Origin: Halioglobus sp.
Lineage (GTDB): Bacteria > Pseudomonadota > Gammaproteobacteria > Pseudomonadales > Halieaceae
Direction of reading: 5' to 3'
NCBI GenBank assembly: GCA_034521205.1
Contig: JAXHMT010000002.1
Location: 37,896 to 101,895 of the forward strand
DNA: 64,000 nt
Position numbers and translations under genes: made by a program. Below are positions 1,305 through 16,796 of this stretch, piece after piece (within the stretch, counting starts at the first letter, position 1; each line of letters opens with the position of its first letter). The notes beneath the pieces were generated by a model, which made no database searches, had not been told where the DNA came from, and saw only the letters and a program-made list of their open reading frames with translations.

Positions 1305-1320
1305 TGTTCGGCAGCGCACA
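1305..1320. promoter_or_regulatory. CRP-like palindromic operator upstream of DUF883 (TGTTCG-GCAG-CGCACA)
   Basis: Matches the island motif; minus-strand -10-like CATCAT (1278-1283) is 21 bp away. Confidence 0.65.
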
Positions 1321-2683: not shown

Positions 2684-2913
2684 TAAAGGTGCCACACAGA
2701 TTCGCTGCAAGCACGATTCCCCAGAGGCGCGCGATGCAATAGAACCCGTTACGCGTTCTGCAGCGCTCCCGCTGCGTCGCCAGGCGGAGTCGCCATGCCT
2801 GCAAGGTCTTGCCCCGATACTGTACTCGTATCGCCGAGTTTATTTTTCGCATTATTGGATAGCCGCCAGGAGAACTCCGCTCCGCTGGTTTACCGGAATC
2901 ATGCACTGCCGTT

Positions 2914-2933
2914 TCTGTGCGATCGCGCACAGA
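2914..2933. promoter_or_regulatory. Perfect CRP-like operator TCTGTGCG-ATCG-CGCACAGA upstream of the PRC-barrel gene
   Basis: 8-bp perfect inverted repeat; -10-like CATTAT at 2953-2958, 21 bp from the core. Confidence 0.75.
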
Positions 2934-3031
2934 CTCAAGCCGGGGCACCGGTCATTATGATTGAACAGAACGAAGGGATGCCGCCTGTTCTGGAAAATCA
3001 GGTATTCAAACCACACGAGTGATGGAGAAAG

Positions 3032-3583
3032 ATGATGCTTGCTCAATTAGTTCAGAACACATTAAGCGCCACCCTGCTGACAGGGGGCTTGGCCCTGAGT
3101 ATGTCCGCGGTGGCAGCTCAAGGACTGTACTCGGCTGACGATCTTCTGGACGCCGATGTCTATGCCTCCGACGGCGAGGAAATCGGCGAAGTGGAAGATC
3201 TGCTCCTGGGGGATGACATGTCAATCCATTCCCTGGTTATCGAACTGGATTCCATGCTGGGAATGGGCGGACGCGAAGTGGTTGCCATGCGTGGAACCTT
3301 TACCGTACGGCCCGAAGAGTCGAAAAAAGGTGAAAACGAATTTGGCGATATCGATTACGAAGTACACCTCGATTCGAGCAAGGATGCAATAAAAGACCTG
3401 CCGGAGTACAGCAAAAGCTGGTGGCAAAAAACTCAGGCAGCCCTGGTCAACGCCTGGGAAGAAACCATGGACACCAGTGAGAGTGCCTGGGAAAGCACCA
3501 AGGAGGCTACCTCCTCAGCCTGGCACAAACTGCGCGAAGGCGCCGAAGGACTGGGAGACGATGTAGAGGCAGCGACGGACTAG
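3032..3583 (+). CDS. Exported PRC-barrel domain protein
   Basis: Signal peptide; SADDLLDADVYASDGEEIGEVEDLLLGDD...LVIE PRC-barrel pattern; acidic helical tail. Confidence 0.85.
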   Translation: MMLAQLVQNTLSATLLTGGLALSMSAVAAQGLYSADDLLDADVYASDGEEIGEVEDLLLGDDMSIHSLVIELDSMLGMGGREVVAMRGTFTVRPEESKKGENEFGDIDYEVHLDSSKDAIKDLPEYSKSWWQKTQAALVNAWEETMDTSESAWESTKEATSSAWHKLREGAEGLGDDVEAATD

Positions 3584-3667
3584 CCAGGATCAACCCAATA
3601 GATCGGATTCTGACGGACGCGCACAGGTCGATGCTGGATTTTCAGTGTCCGAATCCATGAGCCTGTG

Positions 3668-3683
3668 TGCGCGGAAACGAACA
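3668..3683. promoter_or_regulatory. CRP-like operator (TGCGCG-GAAA-CGAACA) upstream of a small lipoprotein
   Basis: CATAAT at 3705-3710, 21 bp downstream. Confidence 0.65.
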
Positions 3684-3746
3684 GACCATTCCACTACCTG
3701 CTGCCATAATCTGTTTCTACCCACTGGAAACTGGAGACCAATCACC

Positions 3747-3911
3747 ATGAAACTCAGCAGAACCATTACAGCCGCCATACTCGCAAGTGCCTTGATGATC
3801 ACACTGTCTGCCTGCGAGAACGAAGGTCCTCTTGAAGACGCGGGTGAGGAGATGGACGACGCAGTCGAGAACACAGGCGATGCCATCGAAGATGCCACCG
3901 ACGGCGGTTGA
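3747..3911 (+). CDS. Small acidic lipoprotein (54 aa)
   Basis: MKLSRTITAAILASALMITLSAC lipobox, then ENEGPLEDAGEEMDDAVE; GGAG SD upstream. Confidence 0.8.
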   Translation: MKLSRTITAAILASALMITLSACENEGPLEDAGEEMDDAVENTGDAIEDATDGG

Positions 3912-3969
3912 GCCAAAATCGGAGTGATGATTCTTCGGGTATATGCCCTCGGAGATCTTTTCACGTGGT

Positions 3970-5035
3970 ATGAAAGTGATTCTGATCTTGTCGGCCCTTA
4001 TTGTGGTGATAATAACGGCCCTTCCGCTGCTGCGTTTCGACCAGTGGTGGATTCGCGTTCTCGATTTTCCAAGAGCGCAAATCACCGTCGCTGGCATTGT
4101 GCTTCTTGCTCTCCATCTCTACTTCTGGGAAGCGCACCGGATTTACGAATCCGTTGTTCTTGGCCTGTTGGTGCTGGCGGTCGGGTATCAGATTGTGAAG
4201 ATATTCCCGTACACGGTGCTTATGCCCAGGCAGGTATTAGCGGCTGAATCGCGTTCGAACGGTGCTAACCTCAAGTTGCTTGTTGCCAACGTGCTGATGG
4301 ACAACCGGGAGTCTGAAGCCTTTCTGGATATCGTGCGCGAGTTTGACCCTGACATGGTCCTGACCGTGGAGACAGACGATTGGTGGGAGAAAGCACTCAG
4401 GGCATTGGAAGAGAAGTATCCATACACGCTCAAGAATCCGCTAGACAATACCTACGGCATGCTTTTGCACAGTCGACTGGAGGTGATAGATCCCGAAATC
4501 CGCTTTATTCTGAAAGACAGCATCCCGTCGATGCACATGCAGGTGGTGCTGCCTTCGGATGACCGGGTCTTCATGCACTTCGTCCATCCCGATCCGCCAA
4601 ACCCGAAGTATGCGACGGAGACGACCGAGCGGGATGCAGAACTGCTGATCCTCGGCCGGGAGACGGAGAAGCGTGACAAGCCGACAATCATTGCAGGGGA
4701 CTTCAACGATGTTGCATGGTCCGATACCACGCGTCTCTTTCAGAAAGCCAGTGGTCTGCTCGACCCGCGTGACGGACGGGGGATGTACTGCACCTTCAAT
4801 GCCAGAAATCCTCTGACTGCGCTGGCCGCTCGATCACGTCTTCCACTCCGATCATTTCAAGCTCGTCCGCATGGAGAAGGGGCCTGCCTGGGGATCGGAT
4901 CATTTTCCCATTTTCATCGAATTGAGTCTGGAGCACGAAGCAGAAGCTGAGCAGGACGAACCGGATACAGACCAGTCGGAAGCGGATCGGGTAGACGAAA
5001 AAATCAAAGACGGCAGGCAGAAAGCCGAGGAATGA
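3970..5035 (+). pseudogene. Membrane-anchored endonuclease/exonuclease/phosphatase (EEP, YafD-like), frameshift near 4815
   Basis: N-terminal TM helices; ANVL, LTVE and AGDFNDV motifs; the shifted frame restores RWPLDHVFHS...GSDHFP and ends at TGA 5033-5035. Confidence 0.85.
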
Positions 5036-5262
5036 TTCTGTCAGGTCTGGTCTTCTGGAAAATTATCATTAATTGGTTCGCAATCGAACTGAGGAGTGAA
5101 GAACATCAAGGTGACCTCGAAGTAATTCTGTGGGATAGCAAACAGTGAGGGCGCCAACAGCATGTCAGTCTGGCGCACGCAGCCCGCTGCCGCCGACACA
5201 AAATTGCTCACTGATTCATTCGATTCTGATCCATTCAACACCGGAAGCCAAGGAAGCCATAA

Positions 5263-5843
5263 ATGCCTTTCGAATTAACCGATCTACCTTACGCTCGCGA
5301 TGCACTGCAACCGCACATGTCAAAGGAGACCCTGGACTTTCATTACGGCAAACATCACGCCGGCTATGTGAAAAAGCTGAACAAGGCGCTGGAGAAAAAG
5401 GGGCTTGACGTTCCGCTGGAGGAGCTGATACGCACGCAGTCCGGCGACGTATTCAACAATGCGGCGCAGGTCTGGAACCATACGTTTTTCTGGCACCGTC
5501 TTAGCCCTGACGGCGGAGGAGAACCAGAAGGCGCACTGCTGGATGATTTGAATGCGGCGTTTGGTTCCGTGCAGGAGTTCAAGGACAAATTCAAATCTGA
5601 CCGCCAAGTCCAATTTCGGCTCCGGATGGACATGGCTGGTACAGAATGCGAACGGAGAACTGGAGGTCGTGAACACCGATGATGCGGATACGCCGGTGCG
5701 AGACACTGCTAAACGGCCGCTACTGACGGTTGACGTCTGGGAACATGCGTACTATCTGGATTACCGCAACTGACAGAGGCGCCTACCTTGACGCCTTCTG
5801 GAAGCTCGTCAACTGGTCGTTCGTCGCGGGCAATCGTCCGTGA
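5263..5843 (+). pseudogene. sodB: Fe/Mn superoxide dismutase (Fe-type signature), frameshifts near 5595 and 5772
   Basis: [41 protein letters not shown]; a third frame gives AYLDAFWKLVNWSFV...*. Confidence 0.92.
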
Positions 5844-5930
5844 GCTGCGACCGACCACGACAACTCTCGACAAAAGGCCTGTGGACCCGCGACTCGAGAT
5901 TGGCATACCCACCTTGAAAGGAGAACGCTG

Positions 5931-6225
5931 ATGCGTGTAACAACATTTTTGTGCGCTGTAACTGCGGTCACAGCACTGAGCAGCCTGTGATTTCAAACAG
6001 GGGCCGATGGAGGAAGCGGGGGAGAAAGTTGACGAAAGCTATCAGGAGGCGCTGACCGATATTGAAGAGACCGCCGACAAGATGAGTGAACGTCTTGAGG
6101 AGAGCCGCAACGAGGCCGAGGAGGCCATGCAACAGAGCAAAAAGGAAGCGCAGGCAGTTATGCAAGACACCGCCGATGAACTGGAGATGAATATGAACGA
6201 GGAGCAGACAGCGTCAGAAAAATAG
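5931..6225 (+). pseudogene. Small acidic lipoprotein, paralog of 3747..3911, frameshift near 5985
   Basis: AGGAGA SD, MRVTTFLCAVTAVTALS signal, then shifted C-DFKQGPMEEAGEKVDE helical repeat. Confidence 0.6.
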
Positions 6226-6356
6226 GCTTGCAGGCGGCGTCTTCTGCTGAAAAAACTCCCGCTCTCGCAGCTCGCTATATTTTTTGAGGGTCGCCTCGAT
6301 ATGGGGCGCTCCTTCGGCGAAGTCGTGACCTGTCTCCGGTTGTGTCGTGGAGTTGT

Positions 6357-6537
6357 TCATTTCGTTGCCTTCTTGACGTCGCTCTTGATGTCACCGTACT
6401 TGGCTTGTGCCTTGCCGGCATGCTTCTCGGCCTTTCCCTTGTACTCCGTGCTTTTGTCGCCCGTCACCTTGCCGGCAGCCTCCTTGATCTTGCCTTTTGC
6501 CTCGTTTCGCACGACCTTTGACCTGATTCTTGTCCAT
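6357..6537 (-). pseudogene. csbD: CsbD/YjbJ general stress protein, +1 frameshift near 6507
   Basis: MDKNQVKGRA.EAKGKIKEAAGKVTGDKSTEYKGKAEKHAGKAQAKYGDIKSDVKKATK*. Confidence 0.85.
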
Positions 6538-6648
6538 GCAGCTGATCTCCAGAGAACTGTCTCGTTTGAGTTTTGCCACTTACCGCGAATCCATTCAGAT
6601 CTGAGGGTGGCAAGCGATGCACTCTAAGTTGAAGCTCAGATTCTGGTC

Positions 6649-6721
6649 GGTGCGGTGCCAACGTAGCCCACAGCTGCACTGATTACAAAACCGGCTTGGC
6701 GGATCGGTACGATATAGCACA
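6649..6721. promoter_or_regulatory. Divergent pair of CRP-like operators (6649-6664 facing csbD; 6706-6721 facing DUF2254)
   Basis: GGTGCG-GTGC-CAACGT with minus-strand TAGAGT (6621-6626); GGTACG-ATAT-AGCACA with TAACAT (6744-6749). Both gaps are 22 bp. Confidence 0.55.
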
Positions 6722-6937
6722 GACGGCTCGTCGAAGATCGGGATAACATTCGCACCTTGACCGGGCTGGCATACAATACCCGGGTCAGGCGCGATGTCTG
6801 CACTTTGACAGTGGCAACCTCCGCCGCTGTGATCTGGCCGTACCTGCTCTTCGGTAAATTGACAGGAGTGAGTGTGCCGCGGAAGCATCCGTCTTTGGCA
6901 TGCAGAAAGCGCTCCCTGCCGAAGTGGGCACAGGGAA

Positions 6938-8035
6938 ATGAAGATGACTTCGACGATTTCGACGGAACGCCGCAGGTTCCTGGTCAGCCAACTCCGCGAG
7001 CGACTCTGGGTAAGGCCGCTGCTGGTGTGCCTGCTATCAATTGGCGCGGCTTTCTTCGCAAAGCTCATCGATGACACGGGGTTGGGGCGGTATGTGCCGG
7101 AAGTCACAACCGAGTCTGTCGAGATGCTGTTGTCCGTCATGGCCGCCAGTATGATGGTGATTGCTACATTTTCAGTAGCCTCAATGGTTTCAGCCTATGC
7201 GGCGGCAAGCAACACGGCTACGCCGCGATCCTTTGCCCTGGTGGTTGCCGACGACGCCTCGCAGAATGCGCTTTCAGCCTTTGTCGGCGCATTCATCTTT
7301 TCCATTGTGGCGCTTACTGCGGTCAAGAACGGTTATTTCGGTTCTGCCGGGATTTTCATTCTCTTTGTGCTAACGGTGCTGGTTTTCACCATGGTTATCT
7401 TTACCTTCGTGCGCTGGGTCGATGGTATCGCCCGCCTCGGGCGAATTGGCTCAACGCTGGAAAAGGTCGAGAAGGCAACGGGCGAAGCGCTGAAGCGGCG
7501 GCGGAATGCACCCGCTCTTCAGGGGTCCGCAGCGCGGGCCCGGCCAGCGGGACAGGCGGTGTTTGCGAACCAGGTCGGCTACGTGCAACACATCGATGTC
7601 GAGACGCTTCACGGCTGGGCAGAAAAGGCCGACGTCCGGGTACTTGTCGCCGCGTTGCCGGGCACTTTTGCCACGCCGGAACGGCCATTGGCGTACGTGG
7701 TCACCGAACGCGAGGGTCAACCCGTGCCTGAGTGCGAGTGTGTCGTCGAGGCTTTTGACGTCGCTACCGATCGCCGATTCGATGACGACCCGAGGTTTGG
7801 TCTGGTTGTTCTCGCGGAGATAGCCGGAAGGTCACTATCGCCCGCGATCAATGATCCCGGCACCGCGATAGAAGTTCTGGGTAGAATGGGCCGGCTCTTT
7901 TATCTGTGGTCTCAACCGGCAACAAATCAGGATGAACACTGGACGCTGTATGAGCGGGTGGAAGTACCCGAGGTGTCGGTGCGAGATATGTTTGACGACG
8001 CCTTCACCGTGATTGCCCGGGACGGTGCCGGTCAG
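6938..8035 (+). pseudogene. DUF2254 family membrane protein, C-terminally broken after ARDGAG
   Basis: LRERLWVRP, ATFSVASMVSAY..AS..ATPR, DDPRFGLVVLAEIA.RSLSPAINDPGTAI, FDDAF..IARDGAG; the normal tail is missing. Confidence 0.85.
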
Positions 8036-8343
8036 GCCTGCTGGCCGCGCATTTGCCAACGTTTCGTATGCCCCCGACCCGGAAGAGGGTCTGCGTGCCA
8101 TCGAACGGGCACTGATTTGCATGAATCCCGACCACCGGTGGAAGGTCGGGTTTGACGGTGACGAGAACGTCTACGACATCCGCTATACTCTGATTCATGA
8201 GGGAGAAGTAGTATCGCTCCGTCAGTGGGTGCTCCTCGCGGTAGCGTCAACCCGGGCAGCTCCCGGGCTCGGGATCGCGGCAGGAGCGGTCAATTCGTAC
8301 TCGTCCCTCAGTGTGCCCGCCAAGCGTGAGGCGGGCTCGAGCT

Positions 8344-8418
8344 TCAGCCCACTCCCAAAAAACCCAAGACTACCGCTACAATGACGACTGCACCTACAAG
8401 CCAGACAATTGAGTTCAT
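8344..8418 (-). CDS. 24-aa single-pass membrane small protein MNSIVWLVGAVVIVAVVLGFLGVG
   Basis: ATG with GGAG SD upstream, one hydrophobic helix, own operator-like site at 8481-8496. Confidence 0.6.
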   Translation of the reverse strand: MNSIVWLVGAVVIVAVVLGFLGVG

Positions 8419-8480
8419 GATTCGCTCCGTTTCGATGTTGTTACCAAAACATCCTTTTACCACCGCATGGACCCGGTGTA

Positions 8481-8592
8481 AGTACGTTATCGAACATTTG
8501 TATGAAAGCCTCGTCAGAAAAATTCCCGCGGCTTTGATTGCGACAAGCCTTTCGAATAGCCAATCGACAGCCAGTGCCTGCGGTGACGCACA
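8481..8592. promoter_or_regulatory. Divergent pair of CRP-like operators (8481-8496 facing the sORF; 8577-8592 facing yqaE)
   Basis: AGTACG-TTAT-CGAACA with minus-strand TAAAAG (8454-8459); CCTGCG-GTGA-CGCACA with CAGGCT (8614-8619). Both gaps are 21 bp. Confidence 0.55.
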
Positions 8593-8656
8593 GACAAGGC
8601 CGCGCCCGTGCCTCAGGCTGGCGGCTGACAAGTCATTCAACGTTGAGGAGTTCCCG

Positions 8657-8830
8657 GTGGCCGTCACAGCAACCGATCCGATCAAGATTCTTTTTGCCAT
8701 CCTCTTGCCGCCGCTCGGCGTCTTTCTTGAGGTAGGCCTGAAAGGCCATTTCTGGCTGAATATCCTGTTGACCCTGCTGGGATTCATTCCCGGGATCATT
8801 CACGCTCTGTACGTTATTCTCAAGCATTAG
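8657..8830 (+). CDS. yqaE: YqaE/Pmp3 (UPF0057) membrane protein
   Basis: GAGGAG SD plus GTG start; ILFAILLPPLGVFLEVGLKGHFWLNILLTLLGFIPGIIHALYVI. Confidence 0.92.
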   Translation: MAVTATDPIKILFAILLPPLGVFLEVGLKGHFWLNILLTLLGFIPGIIHALYVILKH

Positions 8831-9148
8831 CGCGATGGCCGGGCGCCTGGTGCATCAAACAGATGCTTTTTAGTGGACGGGAGAGCCTGTTCCGAAGTGC
8901 CCGATTTTTCTACGTCATCCCAGCCTATTGCCACCTATTTCCAAACCATGCTCAGGAACCCGCCGACACCAATTCCGATGAAGCGCTTTCCGGCGGTAGC
9001 AGACGGGCCACTGTCCGTGCCTTGAAAGCCTTGCCATAACGTGCCATACGTCACCTCGTTGCCCTCTGCTTCCATTGTAAGGGAAGCGGCACCTATCTTG
9101 ACGCAGAGGGGAGCGAGGCAGGCGGAATCCCCCGGTCTGTATGCAAGC

Positions 9149-9922
9149 TCACGCCGGCGCGCGAGGGTGCAGGACCTTGGGTCTGTAGGTCATCAACCGG
9201 TCGGTCTCCTTCTTTACCACCTCGTAGCACTCGCAGCTGAGCTGTTCAAGTCTGGGCCGGTCCATAACCTCTATCTTGCCGCGCCTATAAGTGATGACGC
9301 CGAGTTTTTGTAGTTTGCCCGCCGCCTCGGTCACGCCCTCCCGGCGCACGCCGAGCATATTTGCGATCAGCTCCTGGGTCATGACCAGGTGGGGGCCTTC
9401 CAGGCGGTCAAGGGAAAGCAGCAGCCAGCGGCACAGTTGCTGGTCGATGTTATGGTGGCGATTGCAGACCGCGGTCTGGGCCATCTGGGTGATCAGTGAT
9501 TGGGTATAGCGCAACATCAAAAAGAGCAGTTCGCCGTGGCGGTTGAATTCCGCCTTCATTCGCTGTCCCGCCAATCGATAGGCGTATCCGGCACTTTGAA
9601 CAACGGTACGACTGGGCGTGCTTTCGCCACCCATGAACAGGGAAACACCCACAATGCCCTCTTTGCCCACCACCGAGATTTCCGCCGATTCGCCATTTTC
9701 CATTACATAGAGTAATGAGACGATGCTGTCGATGGGGAAATAGACATACCTCATGGTATCCCCGGATTCACAGATCACGTGGCCAAGGGGCAGGGGCACC
9801 AATTCAAGGAATGGGTAGATGCGCTCCTTTACCTCCGGGGACAACTCTCCCAGCAGGTGATTTTGCTCGGGACTCTGAGCGGTCTGTTGCCTCGAAGTGG
9901 CGGCCTGAGATGCTTGCGTCAT
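9149..9922 (-). CDS. Crp/Fnr family transcriptional regulator
   Basis: cNMP-binding-like domain (VYFPIDSIVSLLYVMENGESAEISVVGKEG) and HTH TQELIANMLGVRREGVTEAAGKLQ. Confidence 0.93.
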   Translation of the reverse strand: MTQASQAATSRQQTAQSPEQNHLLGELSPEVKERIYPFLELVPLPLGHVICESGDTMRYVYFPIDSIVSLLYVMENGESAEISVVGKEGIVGVSLFMGGESTPSRTVVQSAGYAYRLAGQRMKAEFNRHGELLFLMLRYTQSLITQMAQTAVCNRHHNIDQQLCRWLLLSLDRLEGPHLVMTQELIANMLGVRREGVTEAAGKLQKLGVITYRRGKIEVMDRPRLEQLSCECYEVVKKETDRLMTYRPKVLHPRAPA

Positions 9923-9967
9923 ATAAATCCCTGCTGACTGAAAGTTGGATAACGGTGTTCCTGCTCG

Positions 9968-10000
9968 GCACCTGATTCCGCACCTGATTCGGCACCTGTT
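9968..10000. repeat. 12-bp tandem repeat (GCACCTGATTCC) x2.7 in the regulator leader
   Basis: gcacctgattcc gcacctgattcg gcacctgtt read directly. Confidence 0.7.
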
Positions 10001-10067
10001 TACGACGGAACATAACGGCGGCACGCCAACCGCTCCGATAAATTATGTAGCAGTTTCGGCCGCTGTC

Positions 10068-10152
10068 TGTGCGATAACGCACATAGAGCCGATAACTTCG
10101 GGGCGCGGGGCGGAAGAAAACTGTTTGTCGACAATATGTGTCCTGACGTACA
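10068..10152. promoter_or_regulatory. Divergent CRP-like operators: TGTGCG-ATAA-CGCACA (10068-10083, faces the regulator) and TGTGTC-CTGA-CGTACA (10137-10152, faces the sugar transferase)
   Basis: Minus-strand CATAAT (10042-10047) 20 bp from the first; TACTCT (10174-10179) 21 bp from the second. Confidence 0.7.
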
Positions 10153-10189
10153 TACGCAAAAATTCTGGAGTTGTACTCTCCTTCCTCTG

Positions 10190-10876
10190 TTGATAGAGCC
10201 AACTCAGGCAGGAGCAATTCAACGTGCAGCAGGCGCAATTCAACGTGCAGCAGGCGCAATTCGAACGCCAGCCCGCAGGCGGCTTCGGCAAGAGAGCATT
10301 GGATATCGGCACGGCCTGGTCTGCCTGCCGGTCACCTGGCCGGTGATGTTGCTCGCCATTCTTGCGATCAAGATCGAGGATGGGGGCGGTGCCCCGGTGA
10401 TCTTGCGTCAGCGGCGTGTGGGTTTGCATGGAGCCGTGTTCAGCGTGATGAAGTTTCGCAGCATGGCGACCATTGCGAAAAGTGACGGCGAGGCGCGCTG
10501 GGCGATTGCAAATGATGCCAGGCTTACCCGGGTCGGGCAGCTTATCCGCAAATTGCATATTGATGAGCTGCCGCAGATTTTCAATCTATTAAGAGGGGAT
10601 ATGTCCCTCGTCGGCCCACATCCCGAGCGCCCCGAAATTGTCGGCGAACTGGCCAGGAAAATTCCCCAGGTCCACACACGCCACTGTGTCAAGCCCGGTA
10701 TAACCGGCTGGGCACAAATCAACTATCCTTATCGTGCATCAGTGGCTGATGCCAGAAACAAGTTCAAGTCTGATTTGTACTACGTGAAGAACCAGAGTCT
10801 GTATCTGGATTTCATGGTCTTGCTGCGGACCGTTAAATTGGCGCTGTTTGGCAAGCGAATACAGAAACAAGGGTAA
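10190..10876 (+). pseudogene. Polyprenyl-phosphate sugar-1-P transferase (Bac_transf, WcaJ/PssA-like), short form with an N-terminal frameshift
   Basis: KRALDI (10290-10307) is out of frame with QRRVG, KFRSM, TRVGQLIRKLHIDELPQ, GDMSLVGP.PERP, KPGITGWAQIN and DLYYVKN. Confidence 0.85.
10205..10267. repeat. 21-bp tandem repeat CAATTCAACGTGCAGCAGGCG (two full copies plus partials)
   Basis: Copies at 10215-10235 and 10236-10256, partial from 10257. Confidence 0.85.
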
Positions 10877-10888
10877 CGGTTTTCGCCG

Positions 10889-13456
10889 TCAGGATTTCGA
10901 GTCCTGCCGCAGGGTCTGCTCCAGTTTCTTGGTTGCGGTGATATCCAGCAAGGTAATGACCACCCCGTCAATCACATTGTCCAGCCTGCGATAGGGCATT
11001 ATCCTTACCGTGAACCAGCGGCCGTCTGTGGCCAGTATCTGCTTCTCCGAAAATACCAGGGTACGCAGGGTTTCCAGCGCATCACTATGCAGGTCCGGGT
11101 ACTGGAGATTGCTGGTAAGGTCACTGAGTGGCCGCCCCAGGTCGCTCTCCCGGACATTGATGATTTTTGTTGCCCGGTCAGTGTAGCGTCTGACGTTCAA
11201 GTCCTGATCCAGAAACAGAATTGCGATCTCGATGCTGTTGAGCAGGTTGCGCATGTCACTCTGGGCCAGCGCGAGATCATCCAGCTTGGACTGCATCTCT
11301 GCATTGATGGTTTGCAGCTCCTCGTTCATCGATTGCATTTCTTCCTTGGAGGTTGTGAGCTCCTCATTCGTGGATTGCAGCTCTTCGTTGGTAGATTGCA
11401 ATTCCTCGTTCGCGGACTGCAGTTCTTCCTTGGATGCGTGAGCTTCCTCACGCAGGCTCTGTATTTCGTCGCGGTATTGCTGGATCTCGTGTTCATGAGA
11501 GCTTGCCAGGGTTGTTTTCCCCTTTTTCCGTGCAACGTCCGCACTTGTCCGGGCGATATCGTGAAACACGATCATGCTCGTGCCGCGCGGGCTGTCCGGC
11601 GGTGCCAGCGCCTGTATCGTGATATCGACCTGCTGCCCGCCGCCGCCCGGTAACTGTACCTGCAGCCCGTGCAGATGTTGCGTTTCACCCTCCTTGGCCA
11701 ACTTCTTCAGGGCGGTACTGATCGGTATCTGCAGACTCTCACGCACCATTGCGTGGAGGTTCCAGTTGGCTTTCCCCGTAGCGGGCTCCAGGTACTTCCC
11801 CGTGCGACCGCTGATATAGAGAATGTCACCGTCCTGGTTGATGACGACCGCAGCGGGGGCATAGACCTGCAGCAGGACCTGATCGGCGGTCGCCTGCAGG
11901 TTATCGCTTAAGGGAGGGGTAGTGGCCATGGGTTGCTCCCTGGCTTTTTTTGACAGTGGTGGAAAGGAATTTAGCAGAAACTCCGTCTTGCCACTAAGGG
12001 TGCTATCCTGGCGTCGGTACAGGCGCAGTTTGGACTCCAGCGGCGCGAACAGCCGGGTGTGCTGCCCCACCGTTTCAGCAGTACCCAGCAGCAGCACTCC
12101 GCCCCGGCGCAGGCTGTAGTGAAACATCGGTATCAGGCGGCGCTGCAGGTTGGCATCGAAGTAAATGAGCAAATTGCGGCAGCAAATCATGTCGAGTTTG
12201 GTAAACGGCGGATCCAGTATCACATCCTGCTGGGCGAACAGCACCATGTCCCGAATGTCGCTGTTGATCTGGTAACTGCCGGTGTGGGCAGTGAAAAATC
12301 GCTCCAGCCGCTCTGTTGATACCTCGGCTTCGATCGCGGCGGGATAGCGCCCACGGCGGGCGGTATCTATGGCCTCCCGGCTAAGGTCTGTGGCAAAGAT
12401 CTGCAGGGAGAAATCCCGGAAACTGCTGTGCTGGCGGATCACCTCTTTGAAGCTTATCGCCAGCGAATAGGCCTCTTCACCCGTTGAGCAGCCGACCACC
12501 CAGGCCCGCAATCTTCGCAGCTCGCTGCGCTGGGCCAGCAACTCCGGCAGCGCGACCGTTGCCAGGTGCTCCCAGACCGCAGGGTCGCGGAAAAAGCTGG
12601 TCACGCCGATCAGCAGTTCCTTGAAGAGCAGGTCTATCTCCTGAGGGTTCGCCTGCAGATATTCTGCGTAGTCTTCAGGCGTGGCAATAGCATGGATGGC
12701 CATACGGCGTTCTATGCGCCGGTTCAGGGTGCTGCGCTTGTAGAGAGAAAAATCGTGCCGGGTTCTCTGCAGCAGCAGATCGAAGGTGGTCTGTAGTGGT
12801 TCGTGGTCTATTTCCTGATCCCGGGCGGGATAATTCGGGTCTCGAACATGGGCGATGTAGGCCAGAATTCGTGCCGGCAATTCCTCCGGCGGCGCCACGA
12901 TGTCACCGCACTCCGCGGCGATGGCGCTTTTGGGCATCGAGTCGAATTGCGCGGTATCCGGGCGCTGCACCACGGTTAAACCGCCGACAGCCCTGACTGC
13001 CTGCAGGCCCAGGGTGCCGTCGGAACCCATACCGGAAAGGACCACGGCGATGGCGCGCTCACCCAGTGCGCCCGCCAGGGAAGAGAACAGCACGTTGATT
13101 GGCAATTGCATGCCCCGGGGTTCCACGGGCGTCTCCAGTTGCAAGGTGCCGTGGCTTACGCTGAGTTCGGTATTGGGAGCGATGACGTAGACACAGTCGG
13201 GCTCTATGCGCATATTCTGGCGCGCCTCGCGCACCGGCATCGGGGTAGTCCGCTGTAGTAGCTCTGATAGCACTGTTTCGTGGGTGGGATCGAGATGCTG
13301 CACAACGATGTAAGCCATGCCGCTGTGCGCTGGAGTATTCCCGAGAAATGACTCCAGCGGCGCCAGGCCTCCGGCAGACGCGCCAATGCCAACAATGCGG
13401 GTCGCCGCGGATCGGGGTGTTGCGGGTGGTGAGTCGGCGGGTATCAGGGCAGCCAT
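10889..13456 (-). CDS. CheB methylesterase-CheR methyltransferase-PAS-coiled coil-PAS fusion, no kinase domain
   Basis: GASAGG/QHL/LSGMGSDG triad; TSFFRD, GCSTGEEAYS, CRNLLIYF; EELQSTN heptads; C-terminal PAS (GRPLSDL). Confidence 0.93.
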   Translation of the reverse strand: MAALIPADSPPATPRSAATRIVGIGASAGGLAPLESFLGNTPAHSGMAYIVVQHLDPTHETVLSELLQRTTPMPVREARQNMRIEPDCVYVIAPNTELSVSHGTLQLETPVEPRGMQLPINVLFSSLAGALGERAIAVVLSGMGSDGTLGLQAVRAVGGLTVVQRPDTAQFDSMPKSAIAAECGDIVAPPEELPARILAYIAHVRDPNYPARDQEIDHEPLQTTFDLLLQRTRHDFSLYKRSTLNRRIERRMAIHAIATPEDYAEYLQANPQEIDLLFKELLIGVTSFFRDPAVWEHLATVALPELLAQRSELRRLRAWVVGCSTGEEAYSLAISFKEVIRQHSSFRDFSLQIFATDLSREAIDTARRGRYPAAIEAEVSTERLERFFTAHTGSYQINSDIRDMVLFAQQDVILDPPFTKLDMICCRNLLIYFDANLQRRLIPMFHYSLRRGGVLLLGTAETVGQHTRLFAPLESKLRLYRRQDSTLSGKTEFLLNSFPPLSKKAREQPMATTPPLSDNLQATADQVLLQVYAPAAVVINQDGDILYISGRTGKYLEPATGKANWNLHAMVRESLQIPISTALKKLAKEGETQHLHGLQVQLPGGGGQQVDITIQALAPPDSPRGTSMIVFHDIARTSADVARKKGKTTLASSHEHEIQQYRDEIQSLREEAHASKEELQSANEELQSTNEELQSTNEELTTSKEEMQSMNEELQTINAEMQSKLDDLALAQSDMRNLLNSIEIAILFLDQDLNVRRYTDRATKIINVRESDLGRPLSDLTSNLQYPDLHSDALETLRTLVFSEKQILATDGRWFTVRIMPYRRLDNVIDGVVITLLDITATKKLEQTLRQDSKS

Positions 13457-13478
13457 GGCGCGGAGCCGCTAATCGGGG

Positions 13479-14084
13479 TTAGCCGACACTCGCGCACTCA
13501 CAGCAGGCCAACAGCGTAAACCCGCTCCCGGGCAAGGCGGATGCCAGGAACTGCAAGGGTGGTCTGGCTCCGCTCGGGCCGGGTTGCCTTGGCACCGCGC
13601 AGGAAGCCCTGCCCCCATTATTTACTACACGCCGCAGCAAATCCCCCAGTAGGGGCCTGAATTCCGGTGTCAGGAGAGTGTCGATTCGGCGCCCCCCCAG
13701 GTCGATCCCGGCAACGCCAAAGAGCTCCGAGGCAGCGGGATTGCCCTCGATGACGATGCCATCGTGATCAAGGATAAAGTAGGCCAGGGGCGCGCATTCG
13801 TAAAGCGCCCGGTAGCGGCTGAGCTCTTCCACCATCGCCCGTTCATTGGCGGCAATCTCCTCGTTCTGCAGGTCCAGCTCCACCTGATGAACCTGTAATT
13901 CATGCAGGAACCTGAGGGCGTCGTCCGCGGTTTCGGGATTACCGGCCAAGCGGTGCAGCAGGCGCAGGGCATCCACACTCATTGCGCAGTGGGTTGTGGG
14001 GGGCGTTGTTCCCGCCGCCAGTTGCGCTTCTGCCTTGTCGCGCAATTGCGTATAGACAGCGGGTTCACTAATGGATGTCAACAT
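13479..14084 (-). CDS. Coiled-coil (HELQVHQVELDLQNEE) plus single PAS domain protein
   Basis: Signalling helix followed by RYRALYECAPLAYFILDHDGIVIEGNPAASELFG PAS; no output domain. Confidence 0.8.
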   Translation of the reverse strand: MLTSISEPAVYTQLRDKAEAQLAAGTTPPTTHCAMSVDALRLLHRLAGNPETADDALRFLHELQVHQVELDLQNEEIAANERAMVEELSRYRALYECAPLAYFILDHDGIVIEGNPAASELFGVAGIDLGGRRIDTLLTPEFRPLLGDLLRRVVNNGGRASCAVPRQPGPSGARPPLQFLASALPGSGFTLLACCECASVG

Positions 14085-14160
14085 ACAATGTGCAGCCTCT
14101 CCTGCAGCTATTCAGTCTAGCGTATCGCAGCAGTAGATAGTATCGTCTCACTACCCCTTC

Positions 14161-14176
14161 GGTGCAGAGACGCCCA
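14161..14176. promoter_or_regulatory. CRP-like operator (GGTGCA-GAGA-CGCCCA) upstream of the PAS/cheBR pair
   Basis: Degenerate motif match; weak minus-strand TATCTA (14134-14139) 21 bp away. Confidence 0.4.
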
Positions 14177-14345
14177 GAAAGGGCCCTCTGGATGGCCATT
14201 GACGGATTCTATCCACGCTTGGCCATGCTCTCCAGCTATCTGCAGACCATGGCTAACTGTGGATACAGCCCCCTCGTCGCTATACAGCTCGCTCCCTGGC
14301 CAACTTTACGCCGAAGGGGGCGAGTAGTTATTACCTTCAGACTAA

Positions 14346-15545
14346 TCATGTGACCGTCCCGTATGCCACTGCCTGTTCCCGCTCTCGATGATAGAACTGG
14401 AAATTATTCCGACCCTGCCCCTTTGTCATGTACATGGCGGTATCCGCATTCTGCAGCAAGCTCATCGCATCTTGACCGTCCGCAGGGTAGGAGCTGATGC
14501 CGATACTCAAGCTTACATTCAGATCGTGACCGTCAATAACCCGAGGCCGTGTAAATTTGGCCAGCAACTTTTTAGCGACCTCAGCAGCATCCTCCATTTT
14601 CTCAACCTGGGGCAGCAGAATAACAAACTCATCCCCGCCGAGGCGACCAACGGTATCCGTGCCGCGCACGCAGGACACCATCTCCGCCGCTGCTTCCTGC
14701 AAAAGTTGATCGCCAACCGCATGACCACAGGAATCATTGATCTGCTTGAAATAATCCAGATCGAGAAAAAGCACAGCGACCTGCTTGCGGTTCCGCTTTG
14801 CCATGCCGATAGCCTGGGTCAGGCGCTCCATCAACAGCAGGCGGTTGGGCAAGCCAGTAAGACTGTCGTGCTGTGCAAGATAGCTCATATTATCTCTCAC
14901 ATGCCGGGATTCCTGCGCATCATGGAAGACTATGACGGCACCAGCCAGTTTTCCGTGTCGGTTGAGGATAGGCGCCGCCGAGTCCTCAATCGCAAGATCA
15001 CTGCCGTCATGGCGTATGAGTACGCTACCGAGTTCAAGCTCGACTATCCGGCCCTCGTTCATCGCCCGTTTCGACGGGCTGATTCGAGGCTTCCGGGTGG
15101 TACCGTCAACAATGGAAAAGACATCAGCTTCGGGACGTCCACATGCCTCTGCGCTGGCCCAGCCGGTCAGCTTTTCAGCAACCCTGTTGAGATAAATCAC
15201 GATTCCATCCGGGTCGGTAACCAATACGGCGTCGCCGATAGCGTTCAGCGTGATCTGCGCCATGTCGCCAAAGGACATCTCACTAAAGGCGGTCCTGGTC
15301 GTCTCATCATTGCAGTCTGTCTGAGTAGACAAGTTGCCCGTCCAGGTGCAGACGGGGTCCCCATTTCCTGCGGCACACCGGTAACGATGAACAGGGAAGA
15401 AAAGGCTCATCAGCCGATCGACGGGGCGACGCTCAATAGGGATCAGCGAGCTGTTACAACGCGGACATGCCGGCGTGGTAACGGCGGGAGCACTGCGGTT
15501 CCAAGCCCCACCCGTATGCTTTATAAGACTGTTTTTAGTTCCCAT
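14346..15545 (-). CDS. Diguanylate cyclase: N-terminal 4-Cys motif, PAS/PAC and GGDEF
   Basis: CPRC...RYRC...C; ITLNAIGDAVLVTD PAS; HDSLTGLPNR, FLDLDYFKQIND, RLGGDEF. Start codon uncertain. Confidence 0.92.
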   Translation of the reverse strand: MGTKNSLIKHTGGAWNRSAPAVTTPACPRCNSSLIPIERRPVDRLMSLFFPVHRYRCAAGNGDPVCTWTGNLSTQTDCNDETTRTAFSEMSFGDMAQITLNAIGDAVLVTDPDGIVIYLNRVAEKLTGWASAEACGRPEADVFSIVDGTTRKPRISPSKRAMNEGRIVELELGSVLIRHDGSDLAIEDSAAPILNRHGKLAGAVIVFHDAQESRHVRDNMSYLAQHDSLTGLPNRLLLMERLTQAIGMAKRNRKQVAVLFLDLDYFKQINDSCGHAVGDQLLQEAAAEMVSCVRGTDTVGRLGGDEFVILLPQVEKMEDAAEVAKKLLAKFTRPRVIDGHDLNVSLSIGISSYPADGQDAMSLLQNADTAMYMTKGQGRNNFQFYHREREQAVAYGTVT

Positions 15546-15579
15546 ATTCCAGATAATTTCAAGTAATCTTTGCTCAGTC

Positions 15580-15632
15580 TGTGCGAAAACACACATAAAG
15601 CCCCTGCGACCCGCTCAGTGCGCCGCCGAACC
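15580..15632. promoter_or_regulatory. Divergent CRP-like operators: TGTGCG-AAAA-CACACA (15580-15595, faces the DGC) and AGTGCG-CCGC-CGAACC (15617-15632, faces GlsB/YeaQ)
   Basis: Minus-strand AATTAT (15553-15558) and plus-strand TAAATT (15654-15659), each 21 bp away. Confidence 0.65.
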
Positions 15633-15731
15633 GACGGACTCTATCGCGCGGCGTAAATTAACCCTTGCGCGTTGGACGTAATCTGACTGGACTGACGCTT
15701 TGTGCGTCGATATCAACGGGAGTAAGGAATC

Positions 15732-15998
15732 ATGGGTATTATCATATGGCTCATCATGGGTGGCATCGTCGGCTGGATCGCGAGCATGATCATGGGAACC
15801 AACGGGCGGCAAGGCATTATCCTCAACATTGTGGTCGGGATAGTTGGTGCACTCATCGGCGGCTGGCTGATCGGACCACTGATCGGCGCTGGATCCATCA
15901 ACGACGGCATCACCTTCATGAGCTTTATCGTGTCGCTGATCGGTGCGGTGATTCTGCTCTTCGTAGTCGGCCTGTTCCAGCGCAAGTCTGCACACTAA
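15732..15998 (+). CDS. GlsB/YeaQ/YmgE transglycosylase-associated stress membrane protein
   Basis: MGIIIWLIMGGIVGWIASMIM...ILNIVVGIVGALIGGWL...SLIGAVILL. Confidence 0.92.
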   Translation: MGIIIWLIMGGIVGWIASMIMGTNGRQGIILNIVVGIVGALIGGWLIGPLIGAGSINDGITFMSFIVSLIGAVILLFVVGLFQRKSAH

Positions 15999-16319
15999 GT
16001 TGCTGCTGCCGGTCGTGTGCCCCAATAGAGCATCAGACCGGCTTGCGGAGATCCCTGGGGCTGTCGAGGCCGAGCAGGCTTGGAGCCTCTCTCCCATCCC
16101 CGGCTCCCTCCGTCGCCAGCCGTTGCTCCCACCTCGCGCGGACAGCTGACCAGGTAACGGTAAACTGAAGACCAATACGAAGGGCGAAGGCCAACAGGCC
16201 GTCGGTCAGCACAACCTTATTCTTTTGCAAGTTGGAAAAGCCGCCCTCTCCGGGAAAATTTCTCCGAAAAGCTTCTGCTGCCTATCAAGTCGCGGCTTTG
16301 GAAAAAATCACGCCGTATA

Positions 16320-16335
16320 AGTTGGCCAGCGCACC
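16320..16335. promoter_or_regulatory. CRP-like operator (AGTTGG-CCAG-CGCACC) upstream of the second csbD
   Basis: TACCCT at 16357-16362, 21 bp downstream; same half-site type as at csbD1. Confidence 0.5.
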
Positions 16336-16441
16336 GACCAGACACTGGCATTTGATTACCCTGATGAGCTCACGCTGCCTCCTGCCATGAACCCATGCGA
16401 GGAGGAAGCCCGTAAACAAACACTTATCTGGAGATCGGCCA

Positions 16442-16621
16442 ATGAACAAGGATCAAGTAAAAGGACGTGTCAACGAGGCAAAAGGCAAGGTCAAGGAGAC
16501 CGCAGGCAAAGTGACCGGCGACAAGAGTACCGAGATAAAAGGCAAAGTCGAAAAGCAGGGCGGCAAGGCCCAATCGAAATACGGCGACATCGCAAGCGAC
16601 GTCAATAAAACAAAAAAATAG
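16442..16621 (+). CDS. csbD: CsbD/YjbJ general stress protein (59 aa, below the ORF-track cutoff)
   Basis: GGAGA SD; MNKDQVKGRVNEAKGKVKETAGKVTGDKSTEIKGKVEKQGGKAQSKYGDIASDVNKTKK*. Confidence 0.92.
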   Translation: MNKDQVKGRVNEAKGKVKETAGKVTGDKSTEIKGKVEKQGGKAQSKYGDIASDVNKTKK

Positions 16622-16684
16622 CCCCATCACTGACACGGTCGAAGAGTATGCCTGACGCCATATGGCATTTGACCGACAAGCCCT

Positions 16685-16796
16685 AGGATTTGGGGTCAGG
16701 ATTTGGGGTCAGAGTAAAAATTCAACCGTAAGCCGCGTATTACATGCATGAAAGCAACGCAAAAGAAAATGGGTAGTTTTTACTCTGACCCCAAAT
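16685..16796. mobile_element. 96-bp MITE/REP-like element with 20-bp perfect terminal inverted repeats, plus a 13-bp tandem duplication at the left end
   Basis: ATTTGGGGTCAGAGTAAAAA (16701-16720) and its reverse complement (16777-16796); AGGATTTGGGGTC twice (16685-16710). Confidence 0.65.

What the first reader, a model, noticed from the sequence alone, without database searches (positions are those of the whole stretch)
9149..10083. Candidate cognate regulator with an altered recognition helix and autoregulatory site
Seen: HTH recognition segment VRREGVTEAA, and a perfect site TGTGCG-ATAA-CGCACA with CATAAT facing its own gene. Established: E. coli CRP helix F is SRETVGR, with R180, E181 and R185 making base contacts. 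Inference: the R-E pair is kept while the R185 equivalent is E, which fits a retained TGTG core with a changed flank. Positive autoregulation could give switch-like induction. No FNR-type Cys cluster is visible, so the ligand is unknown. c-di-GMP from the neighbouring cyclase is a candidate, since Xanthomonas Clp is a c-di-GMP-binding CRP.
Basis: partly seen in the sequence, partly recalled or inferred. Interest (0 to 1): 0.65.

Follow-up and report, generated by a model that had tools for sequence, protein, structure and literature searches.

The report
BerA-like regulator with self-activating palindrome
A Crp/Fnr-type gene regulator, related to the c-di-GMP-responsive BerA of Burkholderia, sits behind the genome's best copy of a 16-20 bp palindrome that it most likely binds to switch on itself and a neighbouring, horizontally spread set of small stress genes.

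Summary
A 257-aa Crp/Fnr-family gene lies at 9149-9922 on the minus strand. A perfect palindrome, TGTGCGATAACGCACA, lies at 10068-10083. A CATAAT -10 box faces the gene at 10047-10042.

A weight matrix built only from sites upstream of orthologues in other genomes ranks this palindrome first in the whole 4.4-Mb genome. Five of the top five hits, and 9 of the top 12, fall in the same 25-kb island. The motif recurs upstream of 51 of 80 orthologues, with a -10 hexamer at a fixed class II distance. It also co-occurs with the regulator across 150 genomes (P = 2e-4). The family motif is T-n-TGTnCG-nTAn-CGnACA-n-A. The fourth base, the G of TGTG, is not conserved.

The closest characterised relative is not Clp but BerA (Bcam1349) of Burkholderia cenocepacia, a c-di-GMP-binding activator of exopolysaccharide genes. 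It is 43% identical and has an identical recognition helix. c-di-GMP therefore remains a reasonable but untested ligand.

Verdict: a new member of a known but poorly described subfamily, with a DNA motif I could not find published. Every functional claim rests on comparative inference.

The parts
9149..9922 (-). Crp/Fnr-superfamily regulator of the BerA (Bcam1349) subfamily, 257 aa (P0001)
   Evidence: ORF and translation. Pfam cNMP_binding plus HTH_Crp_2. AF2 model with MSA has pLDDT 93.6 and a CRP/FNR fold. 42.6% identity to BerA, E = 1e-70.
9317..9352 (-). Recognition-helix segment GVRREGVTEAAG (residues 191-202)
   Evidence: Aligns gap-free with CRP GCSRETVGRILK. R193, R194 and E195 are >=90% conserved in 141 family members. 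The segment is identical in BerA and in the pKLC102 homologue.
9452..9466 (-). Codons for C153-N-R-H-H157 at the end of the dimer helix. Together with C164 (9431-9433), this is a candidate effector, redox or metal site.
   Evidence: C153 and H157 are each conserved in 85 of 87 diverse representatives, and C164 in 76 of 87. The function is inferred only.
9227..9235 (-). Codons for C230-E-C232 (the CxCY motif), at the start of an extra C-terminal helix
   Evidence: C230 in 72 and C232 in 74 of 87 representatives. Helix 231-244 in the AF2 model.
10066..10085 (.). Autoregulatory operator TC-TGTGCGATAACGCACA-TA (core 10068-10083)
   Evidence: Top PWM hit in the whole genome at 29.1 bits, using a matrix trained only on other genomes. 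Perfect palindrome.
10042..10047 (-). -10 hexamer CATAAT of the regulator's promoter. Its first base is 28.5 nt from the operator centre, which is class II spacing (centre about -40.5).
   Evidence: The same offset (35-37 nt from the first base of the 16-bp core) holds a TAnnnT in 26 of 51 orthologous promoters, against a background of about 0.7 per offset.
9968..9998 (.). 12-nt tandem repeat (GCACCTGATTCC x 2.6) inside the predicted 5' UTR. Its role is unknown.
10137..10152 (.). Second, weaker site (TGTGTCCTGACGTACA, 15.9 bits), with TGTACT at +35 facing the divergent sugar-transferase gene
   Evidence: Bac_transf domain, E = 3e-54.
15580..15595 (.). Site TGTGCGAAAACACACA (22.0 bits) upstream of the PAS-GGDEF diguanylate cyclase gene (14346-15545, minus strand)
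   Evidence: GGDEF genes lie downstream of sites in 9 other loci.
2916..2931 (.). Second perfect site, TGTGCGATCGCGCACA (22.4 bits), upstream of a PRC-barrel gene (3032-3583, plus strand)
1305..1320 (.). Site (19.5 bits) upstream of a DUF883 gene on the minus strand. A further site at 1433-1448 (17.9 bits) faces the histone-deacetylase-family gene.
8481..8496 (.). Site (20.7 bits) between the Pmp3/YqaE gene (plus strand) and a small membrane-peptide ORF (minus strand)
6706..6721 (.). Site (19.5 bits) upstream of the DUF2254 membrane-protein gene, beside a CsbD-like region

Best explanation
P0001 is a dimeric Crp/Fnr-fold activator of the BerA (Bcam1349) subfamily. Through the helix GVRREGVTEAAG it binds the 20-bp palindrome T-n-TGTnCG-nTAn-CGnACA-n-A.

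At its own promoter the site is centred about 41 bp upstream of the predicted start. There it occupies the place of a proper -35 element, so the protein recruits RNA polymerase in the class II manner and activates its own transcription.

The same site, at the same spacing, precedes about a dozen neighbouring genes. These include DUF883, PRC-barrel, DUF2254, Pmp3/YqaE, a sugar transferase and a PAS-GGDEF cyclase; weaker sites (13.7 and 16.0 bits) lie upstream of the Fe/Mn-SOD gene but without a convincing -10. The regulator is therefore the local master switch of a low-GC stress island that moves between Proteobacteria.

What is shown here: the fold, the family membership, the site statistics, the conservation of site and spacing, and the co-occurrence.

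What is inferred: actual binding, the sign of regulation, and the effector. By homology with BerA the effector is most likely c-di-GMP (my estimate is about 45%). That would close a loop with the GGDEF target gene.
For: Family and fold:
- Pfam domains.
- AF2 model with pLDDT 93.6, matching MtbCRP, GlxR, FNR and NtcA at TM 0.7-0.8.
- BerA was located in B. cenocepacia by an exact match to its published 24-nt RpoN site, 196 nt from its ATG. It is 42.6% identical to P0001 and has the identical helix plus the CNRHH and CECY motifs.

The site is cognate:
- A PWM trained on 46 sites from other genomes ranks 10068 first of 4.4 Mb. Twelve of the 23 hits >=14 bits fall in 25 kb, against 0.13 expected.
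- 51 of 80 orthologues carry a >=14-bit site within 500 bp upstream.
- 59 of 211 relaxed-pattern sites in 925 kb lie in the 500 bp upstream of the regulator gene.
- In 150 same-order genomes the 12-base pattern is present in 10 of 20 genomes with the regulator and 15 of 130 without (odds ratio 7.7, P = 1.8e-4). The reversed control pattern shows no association.
- In B. cenocepacia chromosome 2 the pattern occurs 12 times, against once for the reversed control. Five of the 12 lie beside family members, including a 27-bit site upstream of berA.

Activation:
- TAnnnT sits at offset 35-37 in 26 of 51 orthologous promoters.
- The regulator's own promoter has CATAAT at offset 36 and only a weak -35-like CAGACA that overlaps the site.
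- BerA is an experimentally shown activator whose DNA binding is enhanced by c-di-GMP (PMC3584217).

Regulon: the targets conserved in other genomes are the regulator itself (54 loci), a DUF3309-like protein, CsbD, BON, GGDEF, a histidine kinase and DUF4398.
Against: - There are no binding, expression or transcription-start data for this organism.
- Two paralogues lie 13-14 kb to the left, and one has the same helix. The sequence alone cannot say which protein occupies which site.
- Twenty-nine of 80 orthologues lack a strong upstream site. Ten of 20 regulator-positive genomes have no perfect 12-base match.
- A site overlapping the -35 region could also repress.
- I found no convincing site upstream of the Wza-like and Wzc-like EPS genes near berA, the type of promoters BerA shifted in EMSA. 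Their identity with bcam1330/1331 is uncertain.
- The c-di-GMP-binding residues of BerA are unknown, so ligand transfer at 43% identity is weak.
- B. cenocepacia has closer homologues of P0001 (63-65% identical) that are uncharacterised.
Confidence: 0.72

Rival explanations
1. The palindrome is real, but it is the operator of another protein. Candidates are the 83%-identical paralogue at C2:33086-33798 (same helix), the 34%-identical tandem paralogue (helix QRGAIT), or an unrelated factor. On this reading P0001 is only one of the target genes.
For: Three Crp-family genes lie in the island. Forty of 80 orthologous loci have two or more paralogues. Sites also precede the paralogues: 22.0 bits at window position -4008 and 12.9 bits at -2901.
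Against: - The best site in the genome sits on P0001's own promoter.
- Orthologues without a nearby paralogue also carry the site. Sites were found in 51 loci, but only 40 have paralogues.
- The 83% paralogue reads as frameshifted in this assembly.
- It has the same helix, so it would bind the same site anyway. This is redundancy, not a real alternative.
Confidence: 0.12
2. The regulator binds the site but represses its own promoter (negative autoregulation) by occluding the -35 region.
For: The site overlaps a weak -35-like CAGACA with a 16-nt spacer to CATAAT, which makes a 9/12 sigma-70-like promoter. Many regulators autorepress.
Against: - The exact phasing (offset 36 +/- 1) is kept in 26 of 51 orthologous promoters and in many different target promoters. 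This is the signature of class II activation; operators of repressors tolerate variable positions.
- BerA activates its targets (PMC3584217).
Confidence: 0.1
3. The effector is not c-di-GMP. The nearly invariant C153/H156/H157/C164/C230/C232 residues could form a metal, Fe-S or thiol-redox sensor at the hinge between the dimer helix and the DNA-binding domain. Alternatively the protein could need no ligand and be controlled only by its own level.
For: - The Cys/His conservation.
- The regulon is made of stress-type genes, including a superoxide dismutase with weaker sites upstream.
- CRP's cAMP contacts are not conserved: E72 falls on a gap and R82/S83 fall on T102/P103.
- cAMP-independent CRP relatives exist, for example DdrI (PMC11253593).
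Against: - BerA keeps C153, C230 and C232 and is reported to bind c-di-GMP. The same region, rich in Arg, His and Trp, could be the dinucleotide pocket.
- C164 is Ser in BerA.
Confidence: 0.3
4. The palindrome and its copies are chance matches or a repeat family with no regulatory role.
For: The genome is 63% GC and the motif is CG-rich. Matches with 2-3 mismatches are not enriched in the window as a whole.
Against: - P = 2.6e-5 for two perfect copies in the window.
- The independent PWM ranks this site first genome-wide.
- The site is conserved across Gamma- and Betaproteobacteria at a fixed distance from a -10 box.
Confidence: 0.01

Closest known systems
[quoted passage not shown] 2011, cited in PMC3584217, PMC5552954, PMC9684580)
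   Same: - 42.6% identity over 244 aa, covering both domains (E = 1e-70).
- Identical recognition helix GVRREGVTEAAG, plus the CNRHH and CxCY motifs.
- A 27-bit copy of the same palindrome in its own upstream region.
- A paralogue next door.
- A link to polysaccharide genes: here a divergent Bac_transf gene.
- A link to c-di-GMP.
   Different: - It is not the orthologue. B. cenocepacia has 63-65% identical copies elsewhere.
- berA is driven by an RpoN/BerB promoter, with the palindrome 512 bp upstream. Here the palindrome is at class II distance from a sigma-70 -10 box, and a sigma-54-like match is unconvincing.
- The regulon here is mainly small stress proteins, not a large EPS cluster.
- No DNA motif is given for BerA in the papers I could read.
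Xanthomonas Clp (c-di-GMP-binding CRP homologue; PDB 3IWZ)
   Same: Same superfamily fold. It is a precedent for c-di-GMP acting on a CRP-like protein.
   Different: - It ranks only 44th in the fold search, at 16% identity, and is absent from the profile hits at E <= 1e-3.
- From general knowledge, not tested here: Clp binds a CRP-like TGTGA-type site, and c-di-GMP releases it from DNA. In BerA, c-di-GMP enhances binding.
E. coli CRP (cAMP receptor protein)
   Same: - Same fold.
- A 16-bp palindrome with a TGT...ACA frame and the same overall length.
- Equivalents of R180 and E181 are kept.
- Class II promoter geometry.
   Different: - The R185 equivalent is E (D in 17 of 80 orthologues).
- The motif is TGTnCG-N4-CGnACA, not TGTGA-N6-TCACA.
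- The cAMP contacts are not conserved.
- 14% identity.
- An extra C-terminal helix carrying CxCY.
FNR/Anr (including B. cenocepacia Anr1/Anr2, BCAM0049)
   Same: Same superfamily. Class II activation, and often autoregulation. A stress or low-oxygen island context in Burkholderia (the lxa locus).
   Different: - No N-terminal Cys cluster.
- The helix is not E--SR.
- The lxa/Anr box is TTGA-N6-TCAA, not this motif (PMC3721108, PMC9104464).
- 16% identity to A. fischeri FNR.
E. coli YeiL (recalled from memory, not tested here)
   Same: A CRP/FNR member reported to be stationary-phase induced and positively autoregulated, with non-FNR cysteines proposed to bind Fe-S.
   Different: There is no detectable specific relationship: NCBIfam gave only weak NtcA and PRK13918 hits. 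This is a functional analogy only.

Membership tests
Crp/Fnr superfamily | N-terminal cNMP-binding-type beta-roll, a long dimer helix and a C-terminal winged HTH | tested here: met
   Pfam PF00027 (E = 1e-8) and PF13545 (E = 5e-15). AF2 pLDDT 93.6. Foldseek TM 0.7-0.8 to MtbCRP, GlxR, FNR and NtcA.
BerA (Bcam1349) subfamily | Full-length sequence similarity to BerA well above that to other Crp/Fnr families | tested here: met
   42.6% identity over 244 aa, E = 1e-70. Against any solved CRP/FNR protein the values are E >= 1e-5 (single sequence) and 1.7e-13 (profile).
BerA (Bcam1349) subfamily | Recognition helix GVRREGVTEAAG, and the CNRHH and CxCY motifs | tested here: met
   Identical helix. 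ALCNRHHS and ACECY are present in BerA. These positions are >=90% conserved in the family alignment A1.
BerA (Bcam1349) subfamily | Binds c-di-GMP, and c-di-GMP enhances DNA binding | not testable with these tools
   Reported for BerA (PMC3584217). The binding residues are unknown, so no sequence test is possible.
BerA (Bcam1349) subfamily | Activates exopolysaccharide genes | tested here: inconclusive
   A 15.9-bit site faces the divergent Bac_transf gene, but there is no EPS cluster in the island. In 80 orthologous loci there were no Bac_transf neighbours.
BerA (Bcam1349) subfamily | RpoN/BerB-dependent promoter | tested here: inconclusive
   The only GG-N10-GC match facing the gene is TGGCGTTCGAATTGC at 10256-10270, about 335 nt upstream. 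Such matches are common: 33 in the window.
CRP proper (cAMP receptor) | cAMP contacts E72, R82, S83 (T127, S128) | tested here: not met
   In the hhalign alignment E72 falls on a gap and R82/S83 fall on T102/P103. A family-conserved R105 lies 3 residues later. Confidence is low in this loop.
CRP proper (cAMP receptor) | R180/E181/R185 helix, and a TGTGA-N6-TCACA site | tested here: not met
   The R185 equivalent is E199. The motif is TGTnCG-N4-CGnACA with the fourth base free.
FNR/Anr | N-terminal Cys cluster plus C122, the E--SR helix, and a TTGAT-N4-ATCAA box | tested here: not met
   The only Cys in residues 1-150 is C51. The helix is RREGVTE. The motif differs.
Clp (Xanthomonas) | Close sequence or fold relationship to Clp, and its c-di-GMP pocket | tested here: not met
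   Foldseek rank 44, 16% identity. Not among the profile hits at E <= 1e-3. The pocket residues were not compared.

The most novel reading that the evidence does not exclude
The BerA-type regulator and its palindrome form a portable, self-contained regulon. A self-activating class II switch travels with its own variable cargo of small stress genes and c-di-GMP enzymes. It moves on islands, chromids and conjugative elements such as pKLC102, across Gamma- and Betaproteobacteria. This would give recipients a stress or dormancy programme that does not depend on host sigma factors.

Its nearly invariant hinge motif (CNRHH...C...CxCY) would be a new sensory site in the Crp/Fnr fold. It might bind the c-di-GMP pocket, or it might be a redox or metal centre that gates the response to c-di-GMP.
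Probability: 0.3. Interest if true: 0.72.

Novelty: new member of a known kind. Interest (0 to 1): 0.55.

Why it matters

This locus shows the subfamily is large. There are more than 590 hits at 67-78% identity among species-representative genomes, and 3,524 cluster representatives at E <= 1e-30. Its distribution is patchy: 21 of 151 genomes in the order. It also occurs on mobile DNA.

The locus supplies three things that make experiments direct:
- a testable DNA motif and promoter geometry for the whole subfamily;
- a predicted regulon of small, uncharacterised stress proteins (CsbD, BON, DUF883, DUF3309, Pmp3);
- conserved Cys/His residues to mutate.

If confirmed, it would link c-di-GMP signalling to a stress regulon of the kind usually assigned to RpoS or SigB. 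It would also let BerA targets in Burkholderia be predicted from sequence.

Tried and rejected
1. The Burkholderia lxa locus and its 'Anr-related' CRP regulators. This lead came from coordinates of homologues near 71 and 274 kb on chromosome 2. I rejected it. The lxa motif is the FNR-type TGA-N6-TCA, and anr2 (BCAM0049) is 43% identical to Anr, whereas P0001 is about 16% identical to FNR.
2. Xanthomonas Clp as the closest relative. Not supported.
3. Single-sequence AF2. The model was useless, with pLDDT 39. I redid it with a 141-sequence alignment. Model coordinates are not exposed, so Cys-Cys distances could not be measured.
4. RNA-seq or read evidence for the transcription start.
5. The motif at BerA's published target promoters. 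Only a 5.5-bit half-site lies upstream of the Wzc-like gene and nothing upstream of the Wza-like gene. The gene order in this strain differs from the published table, so the result is inconclusive.
6. Literature searches for the motif or for a characterised stress-regulating Crp of this type. Nothing relevant turned up.
7. Rfam scan of 1-17000, for example for a c-di-GMP riboswitch in the 5' UTR. No hit at E <= 0.1.
8. tRNA genes as island borders. None.
9. A correlation between helix variants and the fourth base of the site. The identical helix accepts G, A or T, so no specificity code emerged.
Full report
**Observation.**
- A 257-aa ORF runs on the minus strand from ATG 9922 to the stop at 9149.
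- It has Pfam cNMP_binding and HTH_Crp_2 domains.
- Residues 191-202 are GVRREGVTEAAG, encoded at 9317-9352.
- The perfect palindrome TGTGCG-ATAA-CGCACA lies at 10068-10083.
- CATAAT lies on the minus strand at 10047-10042.

From base composition, the strict 12-base pattern is expected 0.007 times in the window and 0.5 times in the 4.4-Mb genome. It occurs twice in the window (2916 and 10068) and three times in the genome. Five of the 20 sites with <=1 mismatch lie within 25 kb, against 0.11 expected (P = 1e-7).

**Helix.** A profile-profile alignment of the family (A1, 141 sequences) with E. coli CRP puts GVRREGVTEAAG on GCSRETVGRILK without gaps. So R194 = R180, E195 = E181 and E199 = R185. 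HMMER alignments to NtcA agree. In the same alignment CRP E72 falls on a gap, and R82/S83 fall on T102/P103. The cAMP pocket is therefore not conserved, although this loop aligns with low confidence.

**Fold and relatives.** The AF2 model made with the alignment has pLDDT 93.6. It matches MtbCRP, GlxR, FNR and NtcA at TM 0.7-0.8 but only 13-24% identity. Xanthomonas Clp ranks 44th. No solved structure is close, and NCBIfam has no specific model.

The subfamily is large and strikingly conserved.
- More than 590 stretches were found in species-representative genomes, in Pseudomonas, Nevskia, Nitrosomonas, Halomonas, Colwellia, Marinobacter, Lysobacterales and others.
- There are 3,524 cluster representatives at E <= 1e-30.
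- Only 21 of 151 genomes in the order have it.
- Copies sit on plasmids and chromids, including the conjugative P. aeruginosa element pKLC102, whose copy is 76% identical with the identical helix.
- The island around the gene has 54-57% GC, against 63% for the genome.

**Is the palindrome cognate?** I built a 24-nt weight matrix only from sites upstream of orthologues in 46 other genomes. The consensus is T-n-TGTnCG-nTAn-CGnACA-n-A.

Scanning the window's own genome with this matrix gave:
- the 10068 site as the top hit of all 4.4 Mb (29.1 bits);
- the top five hits, and 9 of the top 12, in C2:32904-53475;
- 12 of the 23 hits >=14 bits in that 25 kb, against 0.13 expected.

Across other genomes:
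- 51 of 80 orthologues carry a >=14-bit site within 500 bp upstream;
- 59 of 211 relaxed-pattern matches in 925 kb of loci fall in that 500-bp bin;
- among 150 genomes of the order, the 12-base pattern TNTGTNCGNNNNCGNACANA occurs in 10 of 20 genomes with the regulator and 15 of 130 without (odds ratio 7.7, P = 1.8e-4). The reversed control pattern shows no association. Several hits lie 105-130 bp upstream of the regulator gene.

**Sign of regulation.** In the 51 orthologous promoters, a TAnnnT hexamer sits 35-37 nt from the first base of the 16-bp core in 26 cases (peak of 14 at offset 36). The background is about 0.7 per offset. The regulator's own CATAAT is at offset 36. That puts the site centre at about -40.5 to -41.5, the class II geometry of CRP and FNR activators. 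Only a weak -35-like CAGACA overlaps the site. This supports positive autoregulation, which remains an inference. The predicted start is near 10035, giving a 5' UTR of about 113 nt. The UTR contains a 12-nt tandem repeat and no Rfam element.

**The 'TGTG core'.** Across the family the fourth base carries only about 0.2-0.3 bits. In 54 orthologues with the identical helix, their own sites have G 25, A 29, T 15 and C 1 at that position. The R185-equivalent position is itself variable: E in 43 of 87 diverse members, and D in 17 of 80 orthologues.

**Regulon.** In this island, sites with a correctly placed -10-like hexamer precede the following genes:
- DUF883 (site at 1305)
- a histone-deacetylase-family gene (1433)
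- a PRC-barrel gene (2916)
- a small lipoprotein (3668)
- DUF2254 (6706)
- Pmp3/YqaE and a mini-ORF (8481)
- the regulator itself (10068)
- a Bac_transf sugar transferase (10137)
- a PAS-GGDEF cyclase (15580)

Weaker sites at 5075 and 5129 lie upstream of the Fe/Mn-SOD gene, but neither has a convincing -10 hexamer at the class II offset.

In other genomes the recurrent genes downstream of sites are the regulator (54 loci), a DUF3309-like peptide (13), CsbD (12), BON (10), GGDEF (9), a histidine kinase (8), DUF4398 (7), a DUF1328-like peptide (7), a fatty-acid desaturase (6) and GlsB/YeaQ (5). GGDEF genes lie within 6 kb in 22 of 80 loci, and a second Crp paralogue in 40 of 80.

**Closest known relative.** Four copies of the family lie on B. 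cenocepacia chromosome 2. One of them is BerA (Bcam1349). The published RpoN site, ctatTGGCACGTAAATCGCTtatt, lies at -196 to -173 from berA's ATG (PMC5552954). It matches exactly, and at exactly that distance, upstream of the gene at 1984576-1985358.

BerA is 42.6% identical to P0001 (E = 1e-70). It has the identical helix GVRREGVTEAAG, plus ALCNRHHS and ACECY. BerA binds c-di-GMP in vitro, and c-di-GMP enhances its binding to bep and bcs promoter DNA, which it activates (PMC3584217, PMC9684580).

The matrix finds a 27-bit site 512 bp upstream of berA. It also finds 17.2-, 18.3- and 14.4-bit sites between berA and the polysaccharide cluster. On the whole replicon the 16-mer pattern occurs 12 times, against once for the reversed control. 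Five of those 12 lie next to family members.

None of the BerA papers I could read gives a DNA consensus. I could not find a clear site at the Wza-like and Wzc-like promoters, so the link to the published EMSA targets is unresolved.

**Effector.** c-di-GMP is now a homology-based candidate rather than a guess from gene neighbourhood. However, BerA's binding residues are unknown, P0001 is a paralogue rather than the orthologue, and the local GGDEF gene looks like a target.

The family's most conserved stretch is the hinge: LRYTQ...QTAVCNRHHSxxQQLCRWLLLSLDR. It contains C153, H156, H157 and C164. Together with the C-terminal C230-x-C232-Y, these are conserved in 72-85 of 87 diverse representatives. 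This could be the dinucleotide pocket or a redox or metal site. I could not measure distances in the model.

**Leads dropped.**
- The Burkholderia lxa/Anr system has a different motif and belongs to a different family.
- Clp is not close.
- The literature searches found nothing that characterises this stress-island regulator.

**Verdict.** The gene is a new member of the BerA subfamily of Crp/Fnr regulators. It comes with a subfamily-wide operator and class II architecture that appear to be undescribed. It acts as the probable self-activating master switch of a mobile stress island. Binding, the sign of regulation and the ligand are inferred, not shown.

Noticed in passing
window 841-1374, 1556-2683, 3943-5035, 5263-5773, 10225-10876; L001 9066-10102 and 11899-12400: Many island genes read as two or three overlapping frames. 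These are DUF883, the histone-deacetylase family gene, the endonuclease/exonuclease/phosphatase gene, Fe/Mn-SOD, the sugar transferase, LemA and the 83% Crp paralogue. In the sugar transferase the shift falls in a short C run near 10310-10320 (KRALDIGTA / LVCLPVTW). The cause is either homopolymer indel errors in the assembly or a decaying island. The regulator P0001 itself is intact.
   Followed up: partly
L001 9066-10102 and 10152-10991 (genome C2:33065-34990): Two more Crp-family genes lie 13-14 kb left of the regulator. One is 83% identical with the same helix, but frameshifted as assembled. The other is 34% identical with helix GVQRGAITLAAG. Each has a motif-like site upstream (22.0 and 12.9 bits).
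   Followed up: partly
window 10208-10267: A 21-nt tandem repeat (2.8 copies) at the 5' end of the sugar-transferase gene encodes (QQAQFNV)n. A sigma-54-like TGGCGTTCGAATTGC lies inside it on the minus strand.
   Followed up: no
window 9968-9998: A 12-nt tandem repeat, GCACCTGATTCC x 2.6, lies in the predicted 5' UTR of the regulator. Its function is unknown. No Rfam match.
   Followed up: partly
L082 (P. aeruginosa pKLC102, NC_019202.1:93782-94501): The conjugative element pKLC102 carries a 76%-identical copy with the identical recognition helix. It lies near a fatty-acid desaturase, a SAM methyltransferase and the MobH relaxase. Moderate sites (15-20 bits) lie around it.
   Followed up: partly
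W01 (B. cenocepacia NZ_CP091013.1) 267843-290980: Four perfect TGTNCG-N4-CGNACA sites cluster within 23 kb around an uncharacterised 63%-identical homologue at 274399-275112. The whole 3.2-Mb replicon has 12 such sites, against 1 for the reversed control pattern.
   Followed up: partly
window 10889-13456: An 855-aa CheB-CheR-coiled-coil-PAS fusion, followed by a PAS-only ORF (13479-14084), lies between the regulator and the PAS-GGDEF gene. Only 2 of 80 orthologous loci have a similar CheB-CheR neighbour.
   Followed up: partly
window 1-16000: The island has 54-57% GC, against 63% for the genome. No tRNA gene lies in window 1-30000 or in the 14 kb to the left.
   Followed up: partly
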